In this document: one piece after another, positions 14,563 through 60,667 of the stretch
Position numbering within the stretch: position 1 is the first letter of the stretch
How the letters are laid out: every line of letters starts with the position of its first letter
Source of the DNA: an uncultured delta proteobacterium
Lineage (GTDB): Bacteria; Myxococcota_A; Polyangia; Fen-1088
Length of the DNA: 64,000 nucleotides
Assembly (NCBI GenBank): GCA_963796685.1
Contig: CAWCMR010000006.1
Span: forward strand, 224,001-288,000
Direction of reading: 5' to 3'
Notes under the pieces: model-generated
Seen by the model: only the letters and a program-made list of their open reading frames with translations
Told to the model about the DNA's origin: nothing
Database searches by the model: none
Position numbers and translations under genes: made by a program

Positions 14563-15475
14563 CGATCACGTCTTGCCCCCTTTGGGTGACTTCTTCCTAG
14601 ACAAGGTCACCCACGAAGATCTGCGGGTCCTGCAGGCCACGCTGGCGAAGAAGATGGCCGCATCTTCTGTGAATGGGGTGATGGCAGTGGTCAAGATGTT
14701 GATCGGGGATGCGTCAGTAGAATTCGATCTGCCGCGCAATCCTGCCCAGCGTCTGCAGTCGCTACCGATCCGAACGTGGAACGACGAGAATCCCAATATC
14801 CTAAGCGCGCAAGAGCTTGGTTGCGTTCTAGACGCGATCAAGCAACTCACTCCGCAGCACTACCCATTGGTAGCCACCTTGGCTTTCACCGGGTTGCGGT
14901 TCGGTGAGGCTAGCGCGCTCCGATGGGACGACATAGACGAAGCTGCCGGCCTTATCCGAATCCGGCGAGCGCAGTGGAGGGGTAGGGTATCGACCACGAA
15001 GACCGGGAAGACAAGATCGGTGCCGTTGGTGGCAGAGCTGGCCGTCGTGCTGCGTGAGCATCGCGAGCGGCTGGTTGCACGTGAGGCGCCCGGACTAGAG
15101 GAGGGGTGGGTATTCCCGTCGTCGGTTGGAAAGCTGCATCCGAAGGAAGTCCTTCGTGTGCCGCTCCGAAGGGCGTTAAAGCAGGCCGGTATCAATCGGC
15201 ACTTTGCAATGCACGGGTTCCGTAGGACGTTCAACAACCTGTCACGGCAAGTAGCCGGAGAGATTGTCACCCGGAGTATCACCGGCCACGTCACGCAGTC
15301 CATGACCGAACACTACAGCCACGTCGGCGGAGCCGAGAAACTCGCGGCGGCCGGGCAGATCGTGCGCCTAGTGTTCACCCAGCCGCCCAAGACCGAGACC
15401 GTCGATGAAAGTGGGGATCTAGGTGGGGATCGCGGACCAGATAGAGAAAAGGCCACCGTGGCTGCGGTGGCCTAA
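14276..15475 (+). CDS. Tyrosine integrase
   Basis: TGLRFGE, KTGK, HGFRRT, TGH...HYSH catalytic residues; ends next to the tRNA 3' end. Confidence 0.95.
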   Translation: MKTKYPGIHIMDDGRKRIRLRVIDPRTGRNKEVDKIITGTVQEATKLREEWRLQIRNADQTAKDVPRLGAYAESWIASKALRLKPSTATWYAQRLDDHVLPPLGDFFLDKVTHEDLRVLQATLAKKMAASSVNGVMAVVKMLIGDASVEFDLPRNPAQRLQSLPIRTWNDENPNILSAQELGCVLDAIKQLTPQHYPLVATLAFTGLRFGEASALRWDDIDEAAGLIRIRRAQWRGRVSTTKTGKTRSVPLVAELAVVLREHRERLVAREAPGLEEGWVFPSSVGKLHPKEVLRVPLRRALKQAGINRHFAMHGFRRTFNNLSRQVAGEIVTRSITGHVTQSMTEHYSHVGGAEKLAAAGQIVRLVFTQPPKTETVDESGDLGGDRGPDREKATVAAVA

Positions 15476-15504: not shown

Positions 15505-15577
15505 TGGAGCTGAACAGGATCGAACTGTCGGCCTCCTGAATGCCATTCAGGCGCTCTCCCAGCTGAGCTACAGCCCC
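15505..15577 (-). tRNA. tRNA-Ala(GGC)
   Basis: GGGGCTGTAGCTCAGCTGGGAGAGCGCCTGAATGGCATTCAGGAGGCCGACAGTTCGATCCTGTTCAGCTCCA; followed by CCG rather than CCA. Confidence 0.97.
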
Positions 15578-52566: not shown

Positions 52567-52673
52567 GGCTAACGCTTTGCCGTTCAGCTGCGAGCCCGTC
52601 GCACGAACGGTTCGTTGATGTTACTCCGATTTCCCTGCGGCGGGTTCGTCAGTCTGCAACGGCTTGGTTAGCC
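52567..52673 (-). other. attC site
   Basis: R'' GGCTAAC ... R' GTTAGCC with inverted L boxes. Confidence 0.92.
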
Positions 52674-52959
52674 ATCGCCAAGTTCGAGCCGACGACGCCA
52701 CGCCCTCGGATTGCGGCTGCCATGAAAGCAGGCAATCACCACGACGCACTCTGGATAGACTCGATACAGAAGCCCAAAGGGAAACCGACGAATCGGCGCG
52801 CGACGAACGTCCCGGTAGAGAATCTGGTAGGACTCGGGCAGTTCGGAGATCGCGTTTGCAGCATGGGTAGCTGCACGAAGGAACTCAGCGCCGCTCATAC
52901 CAACCGTTCGCGTCAGCCAGATCGGCCTCGGCTGCTGGCCGAAGAATGACCGGCTTCAC
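52668..52959 (-). pseudogene. RelE/ParE toxin with a frameshifting lesion
   Basis: VKPVILRPAAEADLADANGWYERR* and, in another frame, AEFL...RRFPFGLLY...IACFHGSRNP. Confidence 0.8.
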
Positions 52960-53228: not shown

Positions 53229-53329
53229 GGCTAACGCTTTGCCGTTCAGCGGCGCGGGCGCCGCACGAGCGGTTCGTTGATGTTACTCCGATTTCCCTGC
53301 GGCGACTGCGCTGCAACGGCTTGTTCGAC
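53229..53329 (-). other. attC site
   Basis: R'' GTCGAAC ... R' GTTAGCC. Confidence 0.92.
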
Positions 53330-53600
53330 GGCGAACCCTCGTCCTTGTGAGCCTTCGAGATTCATCACTATCGCCGCCGCTGCCGGCACCATGCTTCGCC
53401 GACCTGCCGCGGTTGCCGCCGCAAGCATTGATCGCTGCCGCAAGTGGCACGAACGGCGACGCCCAGTCGCACGCCGACCAGAGATGTCGTCCCGTCCGAG
53501 CCCTCAGATACCGTCACCTTCCAAGTAGTTTGTCCGTCGAACGCCTTGCCGTTAAGCTGCGAGCGGCCGTCCGCGGCCGATCGACAGCTTCAACGGCTTG

Positions 53601-55577
53601 GTGATGCCTGGAGGTACCCATGAAACCATAAGGTGAAAGTCCTGAAGCGGTAGAAGATCGAAGCCGCATAGCTTGGGTGGCGCCGACATGGGAAATCCTG
53701 GCGGCGAAGCCCACCGACAAAGCCCCGCATGGCGGGGCGAGCAAGGGCGCGGGCCGCAACGACGAGTGAACGTCTGGACAAGGCCCCGAGATGAAGGAAC
53801 CCCGGGTGCCGAGCTGGCCAAGTAGGGGCGAAGGCAGTAGGTGACTCCAAACGCGATCTGGGGAGGCACCGCCCGGCGGGGTAAAGGACGGCAGCACGCG
53901 CTCAAGGTCATGGGAGAAAACAGGGAAGGGCTCCTCGCCCCGTGGAGAAAGCCCACGGAAGCAAGGTAGTCGCGCGAGCCGGAAGGCGAAGTGCGGTGAA
54001 GGCGAGAGCCTGACGGATGGGTCCGTATGAGCGAGGAAGCGGGGTAACGCCCGCGGAGCAAAGGGGCCCTGCCGGAGGCAATCGGAGCAGAGAAGCGAGG
54101 CAAGAGCGGGATGACAAAGCCCACCATCAGTTTGCAAGAACTTCGAGCGAAGATAGGCCAACGGGCGAAGTCCGCCCCTGCGCATCGCTTTTGGGGATTA
54201 CACGTCCACATCAAGAAACTCGAAACGCTCGAAGCGGCGTACCTGGAGGCCAAGCGCAATGGCGGAGCCCCTGGGTCAGACGGCGAGACGTTCGAGATGA
54301 TTGAGGCGCAGGGCCGAGGAGAGTTTCTCGCGAAACTCGCCGAGGAACTGCGCGCGGACATGTACCACCCGAGGCCGTATCGACGAAGAGAGATTCCCAA
54401 GGAGGGCGGCAAAGTCCGCGTGATTTCGATTCCTGCGATTCGAGACCGCGTGGTGCAAGGCGCCCTTCGGCTGATTGTGGAACCAATCTTCGAAGCCGAC
54501 TTCTCGGACAGCTCGTATGGGGCTAGGCCGGGACGAAGCGCGCATGAGGCAAGCGAGAAAGTGCGAATGGGATTGCGCCAGGGCCGACACCGCGTGGTCG
54601 ACGTCGACCTGTCCCGCTACTTCGATACGATTCGGCATGACCGAATCTTGGCGAAGGTGGCAAGACGGGTTGTCGACAGCGATGTGCTGGCCATGGTGAA
54701 GCAGTTTCTCAAGAGCACCGGCGACCGAGGCGTGCCACAAGGCTCGCCGCTGTCACCCCTTCTCGCAAACCTCGCGCTCGACGACCTGGACCACGCCCTT
54801 GACCGAGGAGGCGGCACCATCACCTATGCGCGATACCTGGACGACATGGTCGTGCTCGCGGCCGACACCTCCAAAGGGCGGCAGTGGGCAGACCGAGCGC
54901 TCGTGCGCATCCGCCAAGAGGCGGAGGCCATCGGCGTGTCGCTCAACGCAGAGAAGACCCGTCTGGTCACGATAACGGAGCCAGGGGCGAGCTTTGCGTT
55001 TCTGGGATTCGAGTTTCGTTGGGAGCGGAAGCTCGAAGACTGGAAGATGGTATCCGAGCAGAACCCCGCGACCGAAGAAGGTCATCGCGGTCCTACAGGA
55101 AGTTGGGAGAATCTTGCGCAGGAGCCGCCACTTGCCTATGCCAGGGGCGGTTGCGCAGGTGAATTCTGTCCTGCGGGGTTGGGTGAACTACTTTCGTGTC
55201 GGCAACTCGGGGACGGCGTTCGGCAAAATCAAGTACGAGGTCGAACGCAAGGTGAGGCGACTGGCGGCCAAGAAGTGCAAGCGCAAGGGATTCGGCTGGA
55301 AGCGGTGGAGTAGCGCCGTGGTGTACGGAACGTGGGGCCTCTTTCGAGACTACCGCGTGGTGTACTGGAGCGCGAAAGCATGCCCCGGCGGAACGGACGC
55401 ATAACCCCGATGGAAGACGCCTTCGCGGTGAGCCGGATGCGGGAAATCCGCCTGTCCGGTTCGATGTGGCGGGGGCCGGAGACGGAGTGATGGAACCTCT
55501 AAACGGGCACGAAGCCGGAAACGGCGGACACAGCCAAGGGGCATCCTGCACACCACCGCGCCGGTCCCCGACCCGAC
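53601..55577 (+). mobile_element. Group II intron
   Basis: 5' GTGATG; domain V GAGCCGGATGCGGGAAATCCGCCTGTCCGGTTC; long domain VI ending CCCGAC; RT ORF inside. Confidence 0.92.
54111..55404 (+). CDS. ltrA: Group II intron RT/maturase, frameshift near 55030, no endonuclease domain
   Basis: IPAIRDRVVQ, PQGSPLSP, RYLDD, FLGF; maturase LRGWVNYF in the second frame. Confidence 0.9.
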
Positions 55578-55589
55578 TTCGACAGCCTA

Positions 55590-56045
55590 CTACAGTTCCT
55601 CGGCAACACGTTTCCACCAACTGTCCCGGGTCATCCGATACTTCTCGACGCGCTCGCAGAGGTCGGCGCCAGGAGCCGTGCATACATAGTTACCCCGCTC
55701 CCAGGATGACGTCTTGGTGTAGCCCATTTCCGTCATGATGTCGAAGGCCTCACTGTACGTGAGAGCGAACGTAGCCGTTTTCGACACGTCATCGAGATTC
55801 CAAACATACGCAATCAGCAGATTAGGGAACTTCGCGTATTTCTGGTCGAGGCCAAAGCTTCGATTGCTTGCAGCCTTCATCTGTATGGGGCGCGCTCGAA
55901 ATGTTGGGACACTGGAGAGCAGATCGGCGTAGGCGATGAGGTCGACGCTACGGTCTCGGAGAGGCAGGGACACCTCAAGCCCGGAACGGATCAACTCGCC
56001 GACGAGATGATTGCGTCCGAGCAGCTCAACAATCTGTGAATCCAT
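55590..56045 (-). CDS. Cassette protein, PD-(D/E)XK nuclease-like
   Basis: VDLIAY...IQMKAAS; AGGAG RBS after the core site. Confidence 0.7.
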   Translation of the reverse strand: MDSQIVELLGRNHLVGELIRSGLEVSLPLRDRSVDLIAYADLLSSVPTFRARPIQMKAASNRSFGLDQKYAKFPNLLIAYVWNLDDVSKTATFALTYSEAFDIMTEMGYTKTSSWERGNYVCTAPGADLCERVEKYRMTRDSWWKRVAEEL

Positions 56046-56063: not shown

Positions 56064-56167
56064 GTCGAACGCTTTGCCGTTCAGCAGCGGGGGTGCCGCC
56101 GAACCGGCGACCGGATTCTACACGATGCCCCTGCGGCACCACCGTCTGCTGCAACGGCTTGTTAGGC
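56064..56167 (-). other. attC site
   Basis: R'' GCCTAAC (contains the gene's stop codon) ... R' GTTCGAC. Confidence 0.92.
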
Positions 56168-57487
56168 GCCGCCCTTCGCCTTCGCGAGCCATGACTTGTA
56201 TTCTGCTCTTTGGGCCGTAGGGACGGACTGACGATCCAACAGCGCTACGAGCTCTCGATAACGAGCTGTGCAGTTCGGATTATTGGCCATCCGTTTACCA
56301 AGAACAACGGATGTCTTGGGTGCTTCAAGCATCAAGCCGATCTCCCGGGGAGAGAAGTTCCGGATCATCTTTTCGTAAGCGGACGTTGCGCCCCGAGAGA
56401 ATCCCCAAGGATTTCCCACAGCGCAAATGACGACGGCCTCGACATACTCAGGCTGAACGGTCTCTGGAAGAGCGCCTTGTCCAGCCAGCTCGGCGAGCTG
56501 GTCTGCAAATGGAGGCTCGTTATAGAAGTTGTTGAACTCGTTATGCACGGCCAGGAGGCGTTGACAGACGCGGGAAATGAGGCCATGGCGTTCCATGTCG
56601 CTTAGCAGAGCAAAGATACCCAGCTTGGTGAAGAATGTCCGCGAGGCCTTCTGCCGGTCGACCTTGCCTTCGGCGACGTATTCGTTATGTCGATTAATTA
56701 GCTCCGACTTCGTCTTGTCAGAGAAGGTTTGAGAGAAACCTTTGCAGATATCCAGGCAATTGACTCGCGTTTCCTCTGAGGAGTTCGGATCACAGAAGAC
56801 TCCGTGGAGCATCGCAAAGATGAAATCGCGTTGGGAATTATGCGTTGCGCCGAGCCGCTCGATCCACTTCGAGGTCTGGGTCACTGAGAACTTTCCCGCC
56901 TTGAGCGCAGCCAGAAATGCCTGCGTATCGACACCCTTCGGGTTCGTGCCGGAGCCTAGGGCGTATTTCACGCACCGGTTCAGGAACGCCAGAAGCTCGT
57001 GGTCATCCAAGGTTCCGGTTGGAGGATGTGCCGACGAAAAGTTGTTTCTGACCTCTCGGCACTGGTTCAGAAAGAAGTGGGCTTCCTCATCTACCAGGTT
57101 GAGACTCAGGCATAGGTCGAGCAACTCCGAATCCTTAAGATCGCCCAGGGTCTCCTCTTCGAACGGCTTGCGCGTAATCTGGGCCACGACAGAGAGCCCG
57201 AAGCCTCTTACTTTCTCGCGGAGAGCAACCACGGACGAGTTCCAAGCATAGTTTACAGCTGCGTCGAATAGACCCGCAGCGACCGCCACACACAAACGGG
57301 CATGTTGCGCCGTCAACTTGTCTTTCGGAATCCCACCAATCACGCGTGGAAGGGACTGCCAGGCATGGGCGATCTCGTCGTCCGCAGCGAGCAGCTCGCG
57401 CGGAAGCGAGAGAGCCGCAGTCAGCCTCGCGAGCAGGTCACCGCTCGATCCGGTTACATCTGGGAGCTTGATGAGTTCCTTCTTCAT
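56162..57487 (-). CDS. Cassette protein with a HEPN-like motif
   Basis: 441 aa; AAVNYAWN...REVRNNFSSAH; stop codon inside the attC R''. Confidence 0.75.
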   Translation of the reverse strand: MKKELIKLPDVTGSSGDLLARLTAALSLPRELLAADDEIAHAWQSLPRVIGGIPKDKLTAQHARLCVAVAAGLFDAAVNYAWNSSVVALREKVRGFGLSVVAQITRKPFEEETLGDLKDSELLDLCLSLNLVDEEAHFFLNQCREVRNNFSSAHPPTGTLDDHELLAFLNRCVKYALGSGTNPKGVDTQAFLAALKAGKFSVTQTSKWIERLGATHNSQRDFIFAMLHGVFCDPNSSEETRVNCLDICKGFSQTFSDKTKSELINRHNEYVAEGKVDRQKASRTFFTKLGIFALLSDMERHGLISRVCQRLLAVHNEFNNFYNEPPFADQLAELAGQGALPETVQPEYVEAVVICAVGNPWGFSRGATSAYEKMIRNFSPREIGLMLEAPKTSVVLGKRMANNPNCTARYRELVALLDRQSVPTAQRAEYKSWLAKAKGGA

Positions 57488-57601
57488 GTGACTCCTCTCA
57501 AGTGCGCCTAAGGTCTCGCGCGAAAATAACTGATCGCATTAGTCTGATTGCGGCGTGACTGTGTAGTTCCAGTCACCTCTGAAACGGGCGGGGCGAAGAT
57601 T

Positions 57602-59013
57602 GGCTCTCCTGACATCTTCATGGAAGCGCGGGCACCTTGAAGACGGGATGAAGGACAACGCCTGAGCAGCAGAGGAAGATGAAGCCAATGAGGGCTTGAG
57701 CGTTGTGGAAGCCATAGGCCCTGCGGGTGATGACCCTGATCTTGCCATTAAGGCCCTCGGTTCTTCCGTTATTGAGCCCTGTGGCGACAATGGCCACGAT
57801 GCCGTCCAGGTATTTCTTGATGGTCGCGGCGACCTTCTTGAAGGAAGGTAGTCTGGATCGCCTGGCCCAACTGATCCATTCTTCGAGCTTCTGTTTGACG
57901 ACGTTGACCTGGCGACGACCGAGGATGTCGCAGATGGCGATCTTGAGCAGGTAGCCGCGATAGAGTCGGGCATTGGTCTTCGGGAGGGTCGAAAGCCTCT
58001 CAGACTCGGCCCTGGATAGGTTCCACGGATTCTTGAGCAGAAGGTACTTGGTCTTCTTCAGTTGCCCGCGTTCGTCGGTGTCCTCCAGGAGTCGGACCTC
58101 CGCACGCCGGAGCTCGTCGAGTGCTTCCTGCACGAGTCTCTGAACGTGGAAGCGGTCGAAGACGATCTGCGCTTGTGGCGCTCGCGAGGTGACCGCGTCG
58201 ATGTAGGCCGCGGACATGTCGATGGTGACGGTCTTGAGCTTGCTGGTTCGTTCCGGGCCGAGAGCGTCGAAGAAGCAGCCGAGCGTCGCAGCGTTCTTGC
58301 CCTCGTGGGCCCAGACGACCCGCTGCGAGACGTGGTCGACAACGACGGTGACGTACTCATGGTGCCGCCGGTACGACAACTCGTCGACGCCGATGTGTTC
58401 GAGGTCCTCGAGGAGAAGGCTAGGATTCTCGGTGCCGCGGCACCACCCGCTGGATGATGGCGCCGACGGTGCGCCACGCGATGCGCATGGTTTCGGCCAC
58501 CATCGTCTGGCTTGCTTGTTGGGCCAGATAGGCCACATGGTCCTCGAAGTCACGCGTGAAGCCGACCTTCGGCTCGGCCCAAGGGACCATCTCGATGACC
58601 ACGCCGCACCGAGGACAGTCAACCCTGCGCAGGGTGTAGCGCAGAAGAACCTCCATCCCGCACGCGTCCAGATGCCGCCAGTTCCGAGCCCGAGCATCGA
58701 ACACGTCATGGACCCGACATCCGCAGCCTGAGCAGTAGGGAACGGTCGTCGTTGGCGCCACGTGCACCAATATGCCAAGCAGATCGAATTCGACCGCCAG
58801 GACACGGGTATGTGGAAATTGGAGTAGGTTTCGGAATAGGGTGGTTGCGCGCATGGGCTCCTGGGCTTGTGGGTTCTAGACAAGCCACACGATACCCCAG
58901 GTGCCCGTGCGCACTTCGTCTCCACCTCACCCGAAACTCATGCCGCCCACATCTCCGTCGACGACGTGCGTCGCACCTACGAGATCTCCCCTTACGAAGA
59001 TGTCAGGAGAGCC
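57602..59013 (-). mobile_element. ISL3-family element nested in ISAzo13
   Basis: 18-bp IR GGCTCTCCTGACATCTTC; 8-bp duplication CGAAGATT at 57594-57601 and 59014-59021. Confidence 0.93.
57618..58854 (-). pseudogene. ISL3 transposase, frameshift near 58425
   Basis: Zn finger CSGC/CPRC in one frame; GVDE, IDMS, DRFH, EGLNGKI..RRAYGF in another. Confidence 0.88.
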
Positions 59014-60259
59014 CGAAGATTGACGGCTTCCATCTCCTCGTGTGCGACCTTGATTCCCTTTTTGTACGAGTTCCGGTCGGCGGCGGCGCGGATGTGGAGG
59101 CCCCGCTTTGTCGTTGTGGCTCCAATCAGATTGACGACGGTTTCGAGAGTCTCAAGCGGCCTCCCCCTCCAGTTCGCGGTGATGTGGCAGAACATCCGGT
59201 GTTCGATCTTGTTCCACTTGCTCGTCCCAGGCGGGTAGTGCGCTACTTGTATCCGCAATCCGCTCTCGTCCGCGAATTCCTGAAGTTCTGTCTTCCAAAG
59301 ACGCACTCGTGCCCCGTTGCTGCCACCTCCGTCCGCAGTGATGAGCAGCTCCTCCGCTTCCGGATACACTGCCTTGCCCATCCTCTTCCACCAACGACGG
59401 ATGGTTTCCACTGCAAACTCGGCGGTGTCGTGGTCAATCCCCACGCTCACCCAACCCTCGTTCCTTGCGAGGTCGTACACGCCATACGGAATCGCCTTGC
59501 CGAGTTCCTTGTCAATGAAGTCATGAACCCGGACGGGAACCGGCGAACCCTTCGGCTCCCATTCGCGGCCTCCGTTCTTGAAATCGCCCAGGTTCTCCTT
59601 CTTTTTGGTGTCGACAGAGATTACAGGCAGCCCCTTCGACTGGAACTCCTTCGCCCGGCGGTTGATGTACTCGAACTGGGCATCTCGGTCTGGATCCTGC
59701 TTGCCCTCTCTGGTCTTGTGGTTTGCCTGCAGACTGTAGTCCAGATCCACCAGTAGCTCTCGCACCTTGGTTGCGCTGACCGGGTGCCCCTGCGCTGTCA
59801 GTTCTTCAGCGAGGCGCCGCGTGCCTTTGCTTGTCCAACGAAGCGGCGATTCCGGATCTCCTCGTGTAGCGGGGTCGATCAGACGCTCAAGGGCTTTGAC
59901 CAGTTCTGGGTCCTGATCCTCAATGCGTTTGCGCCCAGCACCGGGGCGGCGCACCCTCTGTTCGCATGGTGCCGCCAATGGCGGCGTCTCCCGCTGCACC
60001 TGCAAATCTCTTTTCCCTGCAACGATTCTCTTGTGGCGCAGGCCGGTCGCGCGAGTGACGATGGCGACGCCGCCGCGACCCAGTGATTCTGCTTCCGCTG
60101 CGGCCCACAGTCGAATCTGGCGCTCATTCAAAATGGGCGTCAGATCACAAAAGAGCTTTCGAACCCGTTCCACTTCGTCCATATTGCGACACTCTTCCCT
60201 TTGAGTGCACAATATACGCAATTGTCCCTATATGCGCTCCTTTATTTACGCGCGAGACC

Positions 60260-60424
60260 TAACGCCCTGCCGTTCAGCGGCGAGGGCCGTAGGTGAAGGT
60301 CGATAGTAGCACTGCCGGGGCCGCGCGGCGGCCTTCCGATCATCAGATGAGCCGCGCGGCCCCGGCTCGTTGACCGTCGACCGAGAGTTGACAGGCCCTC
60401 GTCCGCTGCAACGGCATGTTCGAC
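60260..60424 (-). other. Long attC site (R' core split by ISAzo13; remainder at 57506-57511)
   Basis: R'' GTCGAAC, ATGCCGTTGCAGCGG ... CCGCTGAACGGCAGGGCGTTA|GGC. Confidence 0.88.
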
Positions 60425-60667
60425 AGCCAGGCCACCGACCTTCTCCAATTCCACTTCCAAACCCTTGACGAAATCGGTCCTCCTCGGCGCCAAGCTCTCG
60501 ACTTAAGGCTCGTCGCCCACCACGAGGCTCACGACGCTGGTCCCGATCCAACCTTCAAAATGGCACCAGTCCTGCCCGTGAGATCGGTCTTGCTGCTTCG
60601 ATGATCGCGGGCCGCGCCCCATCATTGACCTACCCGCTTCCGGCGACTTCTTCCTCTGCGGCGGTCT

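What the first reader, a model, noticed from the sequence alone, without database searches (positions are those of the whole stretch)
53536..55583. Group II intron with non-IIC features inserted in the bottom strand of an attC site
Seen: the intron lies antiparallel to the cassettes and splits an attC at CGGCTTG|TTCGAC. It has a full-length domain V with an AGC triad, a long domain VI, an atypical 5' end (GTGATG) and an RT with YLDD instead of YADD. A candidate EBS1 loop CAAGT (53819-53823) can pair with the flanking exon GCTTG, which also occurs at the same position in the attCs at 53229 and 56064. Established: the described attC-targeting introns are class IIC, which have a shortened domain V with a CGC triad. 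Inference: this may be a separate (class E/IIB-like) lineage that converged on integron attC sites.
Basis: partly seen in the sequence, partly recalled or inferred. Interest (0 to 1): 0.85.

Follow-up and report, generated by a model that had tools for sequence, protein, structure and literature searches.

The report
Non-IIC group II intron homing into attC
A self-splicing mobile intron of a type not known to do so sits inside an integron recombination site, and its close copies find such sites by base pairing, which shows a second way in which introns can parasitise integrons.

Summary
A 1977-nt group II intron (window 53601-55577, + strand) splits an attC between G and TT of its R'' box and lies antiparallel to the cassettes. 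It is not IIC. Domain V has an AGC triad and is 33 nt long, domain VI is a 109-nt hairpin, and the intron has both EBS1 and EBS2. Rfam assigns it to D1D4-4, and its En-less protein is 30% identical to that of a IIC-attC intron. The 5-nt domain V loop is a IIE/IIF hallmark. I could not name the ORF class, because no labelled references were reachable.

New here: copies 98% identical occupy at least 8 different attC sites in two genomes of one genus, always at ...CAACGGCTTG|TT. EBS2 covaries with the site: TGAAG pairs with CTTCA in this genome, TGCAG with CTGCA in the other. Targeting is therefore by base pairing to the attC bottom-strand arm, not demonstrably by the hairpin.

The attC-homing group is shallow, about 1-2% divergence. 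Its sister copies (93-95% identical to the window's intron) have other EBS sequences and sit in non-attC sites. Both copies in this genome have a frameshifted protein gene, and one also carries an IS. A 2021 paper already reported class E intron fragments in an attC cluster. Verdict: a real new variant of a known kind.

The parts
53536..53600 (+). Main body of the interrupted attC, read on the bottom strand: outer box GTCGAAC, hairpin, and 3' arm ending ...CTTCAACGGCTTG.
   Evidence: Sequence. The restored site folds as a hairpin of -28.3 kcal/mol. It is the same repeat family as the attCs at about 52569-52681, 53230-53331, 56064-56169 and 60262-60425.
53588..53592 (+). IBS2 (CTTCA, positions -13 to -9 of the 5' exon).
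   Evidence: Complementary to EBS2 TGAAG. The G035 copies have CTGCA in the exon and TGCAG in the intron.
53596..53600 (+). IBS1 (GCTTG, positions -5 to -1).
   Evidence: Complementary to EBS1 CAAGT. The register is fixed by covariation in 63 distinct exon/loop pairs.
53601..55577 (+). Group II intron, 1977 nt, 5' GTGATG ... GAC 3'.
   Evidence: Removing it restores the attC exactly. Full-length alignment to copies in other genomes.
53627..53764 (+). Domain I segment matching Rfam RF02003 (group-II-D1D4-4).
   Evidence: 104.4 bits against a gathering score of 49, E = 3e-22.
53792..53796 (+). EBS2 (TGAAG).
   Evidence: Loop position and compensatory change against IBS2. Other public runs carry C at 53794, the TGCAG form (table 3).
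53819..53825 (+). EBS1 loop (CAAGTAG); the first five bases pair with IBS1.
54111..55404 (+). Gene for the intron-encoded RT/maturase, without an endonuclease domain. It is broken here by one extra base near 55029: the RT part is in frame 1 and the maturase part in the +1 frame.
   Evidence: RVT_1 at 1.8e-34 and GIIM at 5.6e-15, in different frames. Of four full-length G035 copies, three read open (430, 426 and 426 aa) and one stops at 399 aa. The 430-aa copy scores 327 bits on TIGR04416 against a cut-off of 300.
55430..55462 (+). Domain V: 33 nt, AGC triad, 2-nt bulge, 5-nt loop GAAAU.
   Evidence: Intron_gpII 38.9 bits, just under the gathering score of 40. Fold.
55466..55574 (+). Long domain VI hairpin with a bulged A at 55571.
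   Evidence: Fold of 55428-55577: -72 kcal/mol, z = -2.85. The 3' 140 nt align to more distant relatives as far as the last base.
55578..55583 (+). Displaced remainder of the attC R'' box (TTCGAC), which is the start of the 3' exon.
   Evidence: The stop codon of the - strand frame 55590-56045 lies 6 nt away.

Best explanation
This is a mobile group II intron of the IIB-like, endonuclease-less kind with IIE/IIF-type features. It retrohomed into the bottom strand of an integron attC site.

The target is read by base pairing. EBS2 (TGAAG) pairs with CTTCA at -13 to -9. EBS1 (CAAGT) pairs with GCTTG at -5 to -1. The first base of the 3' exon is always T. These exon bases lie on the 3' arm of the attC bottom strand. 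They cover the bulged base and the short unpaired spacer that make the two strands of an attC differ. That explains both the strand specificity and the orientation against the cassettes.

Reverse splicing falls between G and TT of the R'' box. By my reading of a class 1 integron example, that is one base from where a IIC-attC intron sits.

Inferred, not shown: because the protein has no endonuclease domain, cDNA priming probably uses a replication fork, as described for other En-less introns.

The insertion moves six bases of the R'' box 2 kb away from the rest of the attC. This should stop the integrase from excising that cassette (inferred).

The copy in this window is probably no longer autonomous, because its protein gene is frameshifted. 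The only other copy of this family in the genome is frameshifted too, and an ISL3 element also interrupts it.
For: 1. Exact junctions that restore an attC.

2. Repeated use of the site. The junction pattern CTKCAACGGCTTG|GTGATG occurs 2 times in G000 and 6 times in G035, and 0 times in G036, G034 and G033. The attC loops and 3' exons differ between sites: TTCGAC, TTAGCC, TTGGGC, TTAGGC, TTCGGC, TTAGGC. G036 has one further 3' junction with TTAGGC.

3. EBS2/IBS2 specificity. G000 introns carry TGAAG. They occupy 2 of 8 CTT-type motif sites and 0 of 22 CTG-type sites. G035 introns carry TGCAG in 5 of 5 copies that retain domain I; a sixth copy is interrupted before that point. They occupy 6 of 18 CTG-type sites and 0 of 8 CTT-type sites. 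Worked out by hand, the chance of all eight hitting the cognate type is about 0.064 x 0.081 = 0.005. Copies within one genome are not fully independent.

4. EBS1/IBS1 covariation. One search predicted 93 5' boundaries among 160 related loci. Of these, 69 had the loop motif and 24 were dropped for lacking it. That left 63 distinct exon/loop pairs. A mean of 5.89 of 7 positions paired, against 3.12 +/- 0.16 in 2000 exon shuffles (maximum 3.71), and 35 of 63 paired at all 7 positions. Close relatives show matching changes: L197 TAGTC/GACTA with EBS2 TCAAG/CTTGA in the same register; L009 CAATTTT/AAAAGTTG; L008 CAAGTTT/AAACTTG; L007 TCAACATC/GGTGTTGA; L117 TCAATT/AATTGA.

5. The repeats are integron attCs. 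Three intI genes in the genome score over the TIGR02249 cut-off. One of them (C22, 461.8 bits) is followed within 1 kb by the same motif on the strand expected for a bottom strand.

6. In 7 of 7 attC-inserted copies an antiparallel open frame ends 0-21 nt from the 3' junction. This is weak evidence in a genome of 64.5% G+C.

7. Not IIC: see the membership rows. The protein is 30.3% identical to that of a IIC-attC intron in a class 1 integron, against 49.8% to the best plasmid-borne relative. Relatives at about 50% identity that I scanned (L011, L036, L064) also match Rfam D1D4-4.
Against: - No experiment. Pairing is inferred from sequence.
- EBS1 pairs over only 5 positions, one of them a G.U in this copy, then a mismatch. 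EBS2 pairs over 5. That is short for a 7-Mb genome, so the protein or the DNA structure may contribute as well.
- The paired exon bases lie inside the attC hairpin arm. The hairpin would have to be open for pairing. I could not test whether the fold helps or hinders.
- One related copy (L089, G034) has the attC-type EBS1 yet sits at a GACTA site, so its pairing is mismatched. I read it as a recombinant but did not show that.
- For L008, L009, L105 and L116 I found no convincing IBS2.
- The motif counts are pattern matches, not verified attCs.
- The window's array has no intI within the window.
- The frameshifts could be assembly errors in a metagenome-assembled genome.
- The ORF class is unresolved.
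Confidence: 0.85

Rival explanations
1. The intron recognises the folded attC hairpin itself, as proposed for IIC-attC introns. On this view the EBS pairings are secondary.
For: All 8 insertions lie directly 3' of a hairpin, in the bottom strand, and within one base of where the IIC-attC example in L232 sits. Many relatives about 50% identical lie directly after another hairpin, a domain V of another group II intron. The EBS pairings are short.
Against: The intron has an EBS2, which IIC introns lack and for which the stem-loop is thought to substitute (PMC1702495). EBS2 covaries with the site type. IBS1 and IBS2 lie within the hairpin arm, not after it. Sister copies with changed EBS sequences sit at sites where I saw no attC boxes. 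In the relatives that follow a domain V, EBS1 is complementary to the last bases of that hairpin, for example AACCGGA with TCCGGTT. Base pairing therefore explains those sites as well.
Confidence: 0.1
2. The intron did not home into each attC. One attC-intron unit was copied among arrays by recombination or by cassette movement.
For: The two occupied attCs in G000 are short and alike, differing at only a few positions. Integron arrays do recombine.
Against: The occupied attCs in G035 have different variable loops. The 3' exons and the adjoining frames differ at every site. A split R'' box should not be a substrate for the integrase (inferred).
Confidence: 0.04
3. It is a divergent member of class C (IIC-attC) whose ribozyme was misread.
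For: The best matches among solved structures are class C enzymes: GsI-IIC RT at E = 1.2e-53, ahead of IIB and IIA enzymes at 1.9e-31 and 8e-27. It shares the attC niche and the orientation.
Against: Domain V has AGC and is 33 nt. EBS2 is present. EBS1 pairs over 5-7 positions. Outside the ORF the ribozyme is about 680 nt. Rfam gives D1D4-4, whereas the IIC-attC example gives D1D4-3 and D1D4-1. Identity to the IIC-attC protein is 30.3%.
Confidence: 0.02

Closest known systems
Group IIC-attC introns (S.ma.I2; a Kl.pn.I3-like intron in the class 1 integron of plasmid pNY4622-IMP, locus L232)
   Same: They insert in the bottom strand of attC, antiparallel to the cassettes, and separate the cassette gene from the body of its attC (PMC3001079 passages; PMC8876359 passages). 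In L232 the 5' exon ends ...CTGCAACGACTTGT and the 3' exon begins TAGAA. By my reading of that junction, the site is one base from the G|TT position used here.
   Different: The IIC ribozyme is small, with a CGC triad, a shortened domain V, no EBS2, and an EBS1 pairing of 3-4 bp assisted by the stem-loop (PMC1702495). The intron here has AGC, a 33-nt domain V, EBS1 plus EBS2, a 109-nt domain VI and Rfam family D1D4-4. The proteins are 30.3% identical.
Class E fragments H.ha.F1 and H.ha.F2 in the Halorhodospira halochloris attC cluster (Sonbol and Siam 2021, PMC7923331)
   Same: A non-IIC, En-less, IIB-type intron inside an attC array, with an attC or attC-like hairpin just upstream (sections 5, 7 and 10 read).
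   Different: Those are 5'-truncated remnants. No EBS loops, no exact 5' junction and no repeated independent insertions could be shown. 
IIE and IIF introns (for example Cl.be.I2 and Pe.th.I2; Nagy et al. 2013, PMC3753933)
   Same: A 5-nt domain V loop, a small IIB-like ribozyme, an En-less protein, and EBS1 and EBS2 in domain Id with IBS1 and IBS2 just upstream of the splice site.
   Different: No attC targeting is described for them. The 5' end here is GUGAU, the RT motif is YLDD and domain VI is long. Membership of ORF class E or F was not tested.
RmInt1 and RmInt2 (class D, Sinorhizobium meliloti; PMC5894124 passages)
   Same: En-less introns that spread by homing into a multi-copy mobile-DNA target through EBS pairing. 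Relatives differ in target through EBS changes.
   Different: Their targets are insertion sequences (ISRm2011-2, ISRm17), not attC. They belong to a different ORF class.

Membership tests
Group II intron (any class) | Intron-encoded RT with a maturase (X) domain | tested here: met
   RVT_1 at 1.8e-34 and GIIM at 5.6e-15. The intact G035 copy scores 327.4 bits on TIGR04416 against a cut-off of 300. In the window the gene is frameshifted.
Group II intron (any class) | Domain V hairpin with catalytic triad and 2-nt bulge; domain VI with a bulged A near the 3' end | tested here: met
   Domain V at 55430-55462, AGC, bulge CU. Bulged A at 55571, 7 nt from the end. Rfam Intron_gpII gives 38.9 bits against a gathering score of 40, so it falls just under.
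Group II intron (any class) | Boundaries 5' GUGYG ... AY 3' | tested here: inconclusive
   The 5' end is GUGAU, which departs from the consensus at position 4 but is conserved in 12 of 12 related 5' ends. The 3' end AC fits.
Group IIC / IIC-attC | Domain V distal stem 2 bp shorter and CGC in place of AGC (PMC1702495) | tested here: not met
   AGC triad and a 33-nt domain V.
Group IIC / IIC-attC | No EBS2/IBS2; EBS1/IBS1 of only 3-4 bp (PMC1702495) | tested here: not met
   EBS2 TGAAG/CTTCA, with the compensatory TGCAG/CTGCA. EBS1 pairs over 5 positions here and over 7 in most relatives.
Group IIC / IIC-attC | Protein falls in the class C clade | not testable with these tools
   No labelled class references could be fetched (searches failed). 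Indirect only: 30.3% identity to one IIC-attC protein, and the best solved-structure matches are class C enzymes.
Group IIC / IIC-attC | Inserted in the attC bottom strand, opposite to cassette transcription (PMC3001079) | tested here: met
   Strand assignment checked against the intI-linked array on C22.
IIE/IIF (ORF classes E, F) | 5-nt loop in domain V instead of a tetraloop (PMC3753933) | tested here: met
   Loop GAAAU.
IIE/IIF (ORF classes E, F) | Protein without a DNA-binding/endonuclease region | tested here: met
   The 430-aa protein ends after the X domain. Only RVT_1 and GIIM were found in the window's two pieces. The TIGR04416 match ends at residue 388 of 430.
IIE/IIF (ORF classes E, F) | Alpha-prime at the tip of a stem-loop and an extra bulge loop in domain Id3 (PMC3753933) | not tested
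   The single-sequence fold of domains I-III was not better than shuffles (z = -0.49), and I drew no comparative model of Id3.
IIE/IIF (ORF classes E, F) | Protein falls in the class E (or F) clade | not testable with these tools
   No labelled references were available. Supplementary tables of PMC3552965 were closed.
Integron attC site | Inverted outer boxes RYYYAAC ... GTTRRRY, hairpin with an unpaired spacer and bulged bases | tested here: met
   GTCGAAC ... G|TTCGAC. Fold, with bulges on the 3' arm of the + strand. That bulged bases mark the bottom strand's 3' arm is recalled, not taken from a call.
Integron attC site | Occurs in arrays next to an integron integrase | tested here: met
   Three intI genes in the genome exceed the cut-off. 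The C22 array starts less than 1 kb from one of them. There is no intI in this window, so the local array is a cluster without an integrase.

The most novel reading that the evidence does not exclude
IIE/IIF-like introns can retarget to integron attC sites through a few changes in EBS1 and EBS2. They read exactly the asymmetric features of the attC (the bulged base and the unpaired spacer) that the integrase uses to choose the bottom strand. They would then be a second, independently evolved, strand-specific parasite of integrons. Such introns would lock cassettes in place in the large chromosomal arrays of soil bacteria. With the class E fragments seen in Halorhodospira, this may be widespread. 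Because the pairing rules are simple, such an intron could be reprogrammed to hit chosen attC families.
Probability: 0.3. Interest if true: 0.8.

Novelty: new variant of a known kind. Interest (0 to 1): 0.62.

Why it matters
Group II introns at attC sites have been treated as a speciality of one IIC sublineage that recognises a DNA stem-loop. The 2015 review PMC4424553 states that homing sites are used by all lineages except class C. Here a structurally different intron reaches the same place, on the same strand and within one base, by ordinary EBS/IBS pairing. The specificity rule can be read off natural copies.

This gives a testable model for how integron arrays acquire introns, and for how an intron can immobilise a cassette. 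It also shows how quickly target choice shifts in nature: sister copies in G034, 93-95% identical to the window's intron, use other sites.

The finding extends the single earlier hint of non-IIC introns in attC clusters (PMC7923331) from truncated fragments to full-length copies with exact junctions.

Tried and rejected
Naming the ORF class. I tried to fetch labelled references and failed. The S. meliloti GR4 plasmid said to carry the class E intron S.me.I4 was not in the plasmid collection under three accession numbers that I recalled. KX711880, which carries Kl.pn.I3, was also absent. Five look-ups by id found no held paper: PMC2525957 (an id I recalled wrongly), PMC2525955 (Simon 2008), PubMed 12459272 (Toro 2002) and PMC2714756 (Leon and Roy 2009). 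PMC2504315 and PMC6542083 gave no ORF classes for the Bacillus plasmid introns that resemble this one. Class E versus F therefore stays open.

Folding. The single-sequence fold of domains I-III was no better than shuffles, so I did not use it.

Other introns in the genome. I searched the genome for a class C intron to serve as an internal reference. I found only D1D4-3 and D1D4-6 types, both with an AGC domain V.

Public runs.
- No run held more than 0.43 of the sampled words, and all were Logan contigs.
- Related intron pieces occur in soil and peat DNA runs and in RNA libraries. This does not show transcription.
- No contig joined across the intron, so no empty allele of this same attC was seen.
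- One loose end in X1 continues from 53600 into TTCGAC followed by different sequence. That is an unoccupied similar attC elsewhere, not this locus.

The attC figures of PMC7923331 and the tables of PMC3552965 might bear on novelty and on class.
Full report
WHAT IS THERE

On the + strand the window reads ...CTTCAACGGCTTG(53600)|GTGATGCC...CCCCGACCCGAC(55577)|TTCGAC(55583). Removing 53601-55577 joins the flanks into a 70-nt imperfect palindrome. It folds at -28.3 kcal/mol and has paired outer boxes, a 5-nt versus 2-nt internal loop and single-base bulges on its 3' arm.

The same repeat family lies, uninterrupted, at about 52569-52681, 53230-53331, 56064-56169 and 60262-60425. Reading frames on the - strand lie between these repeats. 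One of them is an antitoxin-family frame (PF09720).

The genome that holds the window is 7.3 Mb in 26 contigs, 88.6% complete. It has three integron integrase genes above the TIGR02249 cut-off. It also has 28 matches to the empty-site motif CTKCAACGGCTTGTT, mostly clustered in arrays. On contig C22 an intI gene (461.8 bits) is followed within 1 kb by an array whose motif lies on the - strand. That is the strand opposite to cassettes reading away from intI. The motif-bearing strand is therefore the bottom strand. In the window that is the + strand, which is the strand of the intron. No intI lies in the window, so the local array is a cluster of attC sites without an integrase.

THE INTRON

- Rfam places 53627-53764 in group-II-D1D4-4, at 104.4 bits against a gathering score of 49.
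- Domain V (55430-55462) has the AGC triad, a 2-nt bulge, a 4-bp distal stem and a 5-nt loop.
- Domain VI (55466-55574) is a 109-nt hairpin with a bulged A 7 nt from the 3' end.
- The protein gene (54111-55404) has RVT_1 and the maturase domain in two frames.
- Three of four full-length copies in a related genome read open: L087 430 aa, L102 and L196 426 aa. The fourth, L230, stops at 399 aa. The 430-aa protein scores 327 bits on TIGR04416 and ends after the X domain, so it has no endonuclease region.
- The RT motif is YLDD. Among 160 related loci the position is A in 146, L in 3, F in 2, N in 1, and was not found in 8.
- GTGATG at the 5' end is shared by 12 of 12 related 5' ends found by BLAST.

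NOT IIC

PMC1702495 (passages read) defines IIC introns by four features: a CGC triad, a domain V distal stem 2 bp shorter, an EBS1 pairing of 3-4 bp, and no EBS2, with a stem-loop in its place. None of these holds here.

PMC3753933 (introduction and sections 6 and 15 read) gives the 5-nt domain V loop as a peculiarity of IIE and IIF introns. These are small, IIB-like and En-less, and have EBS1 and EBS2 in domain Id. That description fits.

For a direct comparison I read a IIC-attC intron in a class 1 integron (L232).
- It lies antiparallel between blaIMP-26 and the body of its attC.
- It matches Rfam D1D4-3 and D1D4-1, not D1D4-4.
- Its protein is 30.3% identical to ours. The best plasmid-borne relative is 49.8% identical. 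Scanned relatives at about 50% identity match D1D4-4.
- Its 5' exon ends ...CTGCAACGACTTGT and its 3' exon begins TAGAA. By my reading, which rests on restoring the GTTRRRY box, that puts it one base from the G|TT position used here.

I could not place the protein in a labelled class tree. See Tried and rejected.

HOW IT FINDS THE SITE

A search of 89 genomes of the same order, all of one family, found matches in 16, counting the window's own genome.

The exact 5' junction pattern occurs twice in the window's genome and six times in G035. It does not occur in G036, G034 or G033. G036 has a disrupted copy whose 3' junction is followed by TTAGGC.

The occupied attCs have different variable loops and different 3' exons. 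An antiparallel open frame ends 0-21 nt from the junction in 7 of 7 copies. These are therefore separate insertions.

Two intron loops are complementary to the 5' exon.
- CAAGT (53819-53823; CAAGC in two G035 copies) pairs with GCTTG at -5 to -1.
- TGAAG (53792-53796) pairs with CTTCA at -13 to -9.

In G035 the intron loop reads TGCAG and every occupied site reads CTGCA. This holds for 5 of 5 copies that retain domain I; the sixth is interrupted earlier.

Occupancy follows this rule.
- G000: 2 of 8 CTT-type motif sites and 0 of 22 CTG-type sites.
- G035: 6 of 18 CTG-type sites and 0 of 8 CTT-type sites.
- By hand, the chance of this split is about 0.005. Copies in one genome are not fully independent, and the empty sites are pattern matches, not verified attCs.

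Each mismatches this genome's EBS2 at one position.

The EBS1 register is confirmed over the wider family. Of 93 predicted 5' boundaries among 160 loci, 69 had the loop motif and 24 were dropped. In the 63 distinct exon/loop pairs, 5.89 of 7 positions pair on average, against 3.12 +/- 0.16 for shuffled exons (2000 shuffles, maximum 3.71).

The paired exon bases cover the bulged C and the short spacer of the 3' arm. These are the features in which the two strands of the attC differ. The equivalent arm of the top strand would read ...AACGGCAAGGC and would not pair. This explains the strand choice without invoking the hairpin, although a role for the hairpin is not excluded.

HOW OLD AND HOW SPECIAL

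On a DNA tree of 12 copies (first 1240 nt), the five attC-inserted copies included form a clade with 85/90 support and branches of about 0.01. Their sister group is two G034 copies, and the two groups together have 100/100 support.

One G034 copy (L197) has EBS1 TAGTC and EBS2 TCAAG. It sits at CTTGAACGGACTA|TCCAC, paired in the same register. The 3' exon TCCAC recurs in six loci in all: L089, L104, L108, L109, L200 and L197 by its site.

Relatives 76-82% identical in protein sit at other sites, each with a matching EBS1. attC homing is a recent retargeting within one genus, not an ancient dedicated lineage.

STATE OF THIS COPY

Both copies in the window's genome carry a one-base insertion in the protein gene. 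The two insertions differ and lie 3 nt apart: an extra A in the window and an extra C on C8. The three G035 copies compared at this place (L087, L102, L196) lack both. Contigs of other public runs also lack the base at 55029: X1 15.9 of 15.9 depth, X4 158.1 of 199, X6 72.6 of 147.3.

An ISL3 element with an 8-bp duplication also interrupts the C8 copy. No other copy of this intron family exists in the genome. If the frameshifts are real, the element is stranded here. I cannot exclude consensus errors. Two different insertions so close together remain unexplained.

LITERATURE

- The review PMC4424553 (2015, passages read) lists attC insertion for class C only.
- PMC3001079 (passages read) describes IIC-attC introns as a monophyletic subset of IIC.
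- PMC7923331 (2021; outline and sections 5, 7 and 10 read) reports a CL1 intron beside an attC, in the cassette orientation. It also reports two 5'-truncated class E fragments in a Halorhodospira attC cluster, with attC-like hairpins upstream.
- My search for the three terms 'group II intron', 'attC' and 'integron' returned 28 papers. By title and abstract, none describes a full-length non-IIC intron with defined EBS/IBS pairing to an attC.
- Subscription papers and supplements were not searchable.

VERDICT

This is a new variant of a known kind: an attC-homing group II intron of a different structural type, with a different and legible targeting rule.

Noticed in passing
window 57511-60259: An insertion sequence with an ISAZ013-type DDE transposase (58992-60221, - strand) has 18-bp inverted ends and a duplicated TAA. 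It sits inside the RYYYAAC box of another attC. An ISL3 element (transposase 57618-58925, 8-bp duplication CGAAGATT) is nested within it. This attC array has therefore been hit by three kinds of mobile element.
   Followed up: partly
window about 55029; G000:C8, matching place in intron copy 2: The two intron copies of this genome carry different one-base insertions 3 nt apart in the protein gene. The three G035 copies compared there, and contigs of other public runs, lack them. It could be a mutation hot spot, selection against an active protein, or consensus error. This is unexplained.
   Followed up: partly
G000:C8:664.6-666.0 kb (loci L002, L003, L103): The same ISL3 element as in the window interrupts intron copy 2 at about intron position 60, with the duplication GAAGATCG. 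That target resembles the CGAAGATT target in the window.
   Followed up: no
loci L010-L085 and L118-L195: Many introns with about 50% identical proteins lie directly after a domain V-like hairpin (...ACGTCCGGTT|GTGTG). They are nested in other group II introns, and their EBS1 is complementary to the end of that hairpin. Another group follows a conserved ...GTTTTGGCGAnnnA motif.
   Followed up: partly
locus L089 (G034:C14:373136-375311): This copy has the attC-type EBS1 and a non-matching EBS2 but sits at the GACTA|TCCAC site. It may be a recombinant between the two sister types.
   Followed up: no
G000:C6:215169-216272, C11:68922, C25:752729, C8:672972-673709 (loci L215-L217, L220): A second En-less group II family (Rfam D1D4-6, 470-aa frame, domain V also with a 5-nt loop) homes after ...GCGTTTCCGCGGAA. 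One partial copy lies within the C8 attC array region but not in an attC. A third family (D1D4-3, 580-aa frame) has 7 copies.
   Followed up: partly
loci L008 and L009: The 81-82% identical relatives share a homing site in the loop of a GCCCCTC...GAGGGG hairpin. The site lies just upstream of a homologous small gene that starts M(I/F)..EL..EFF. In L009 the intron lies beside a truncated unrelated group II RT.
   Followed up: no
window 15505-15577: A tRNA gene on the - strand (60.9 bits). A weak tyrosine-recombinase match lies nearby at window 14786-15073. This may be an integration hot spot.
   Followed up: no
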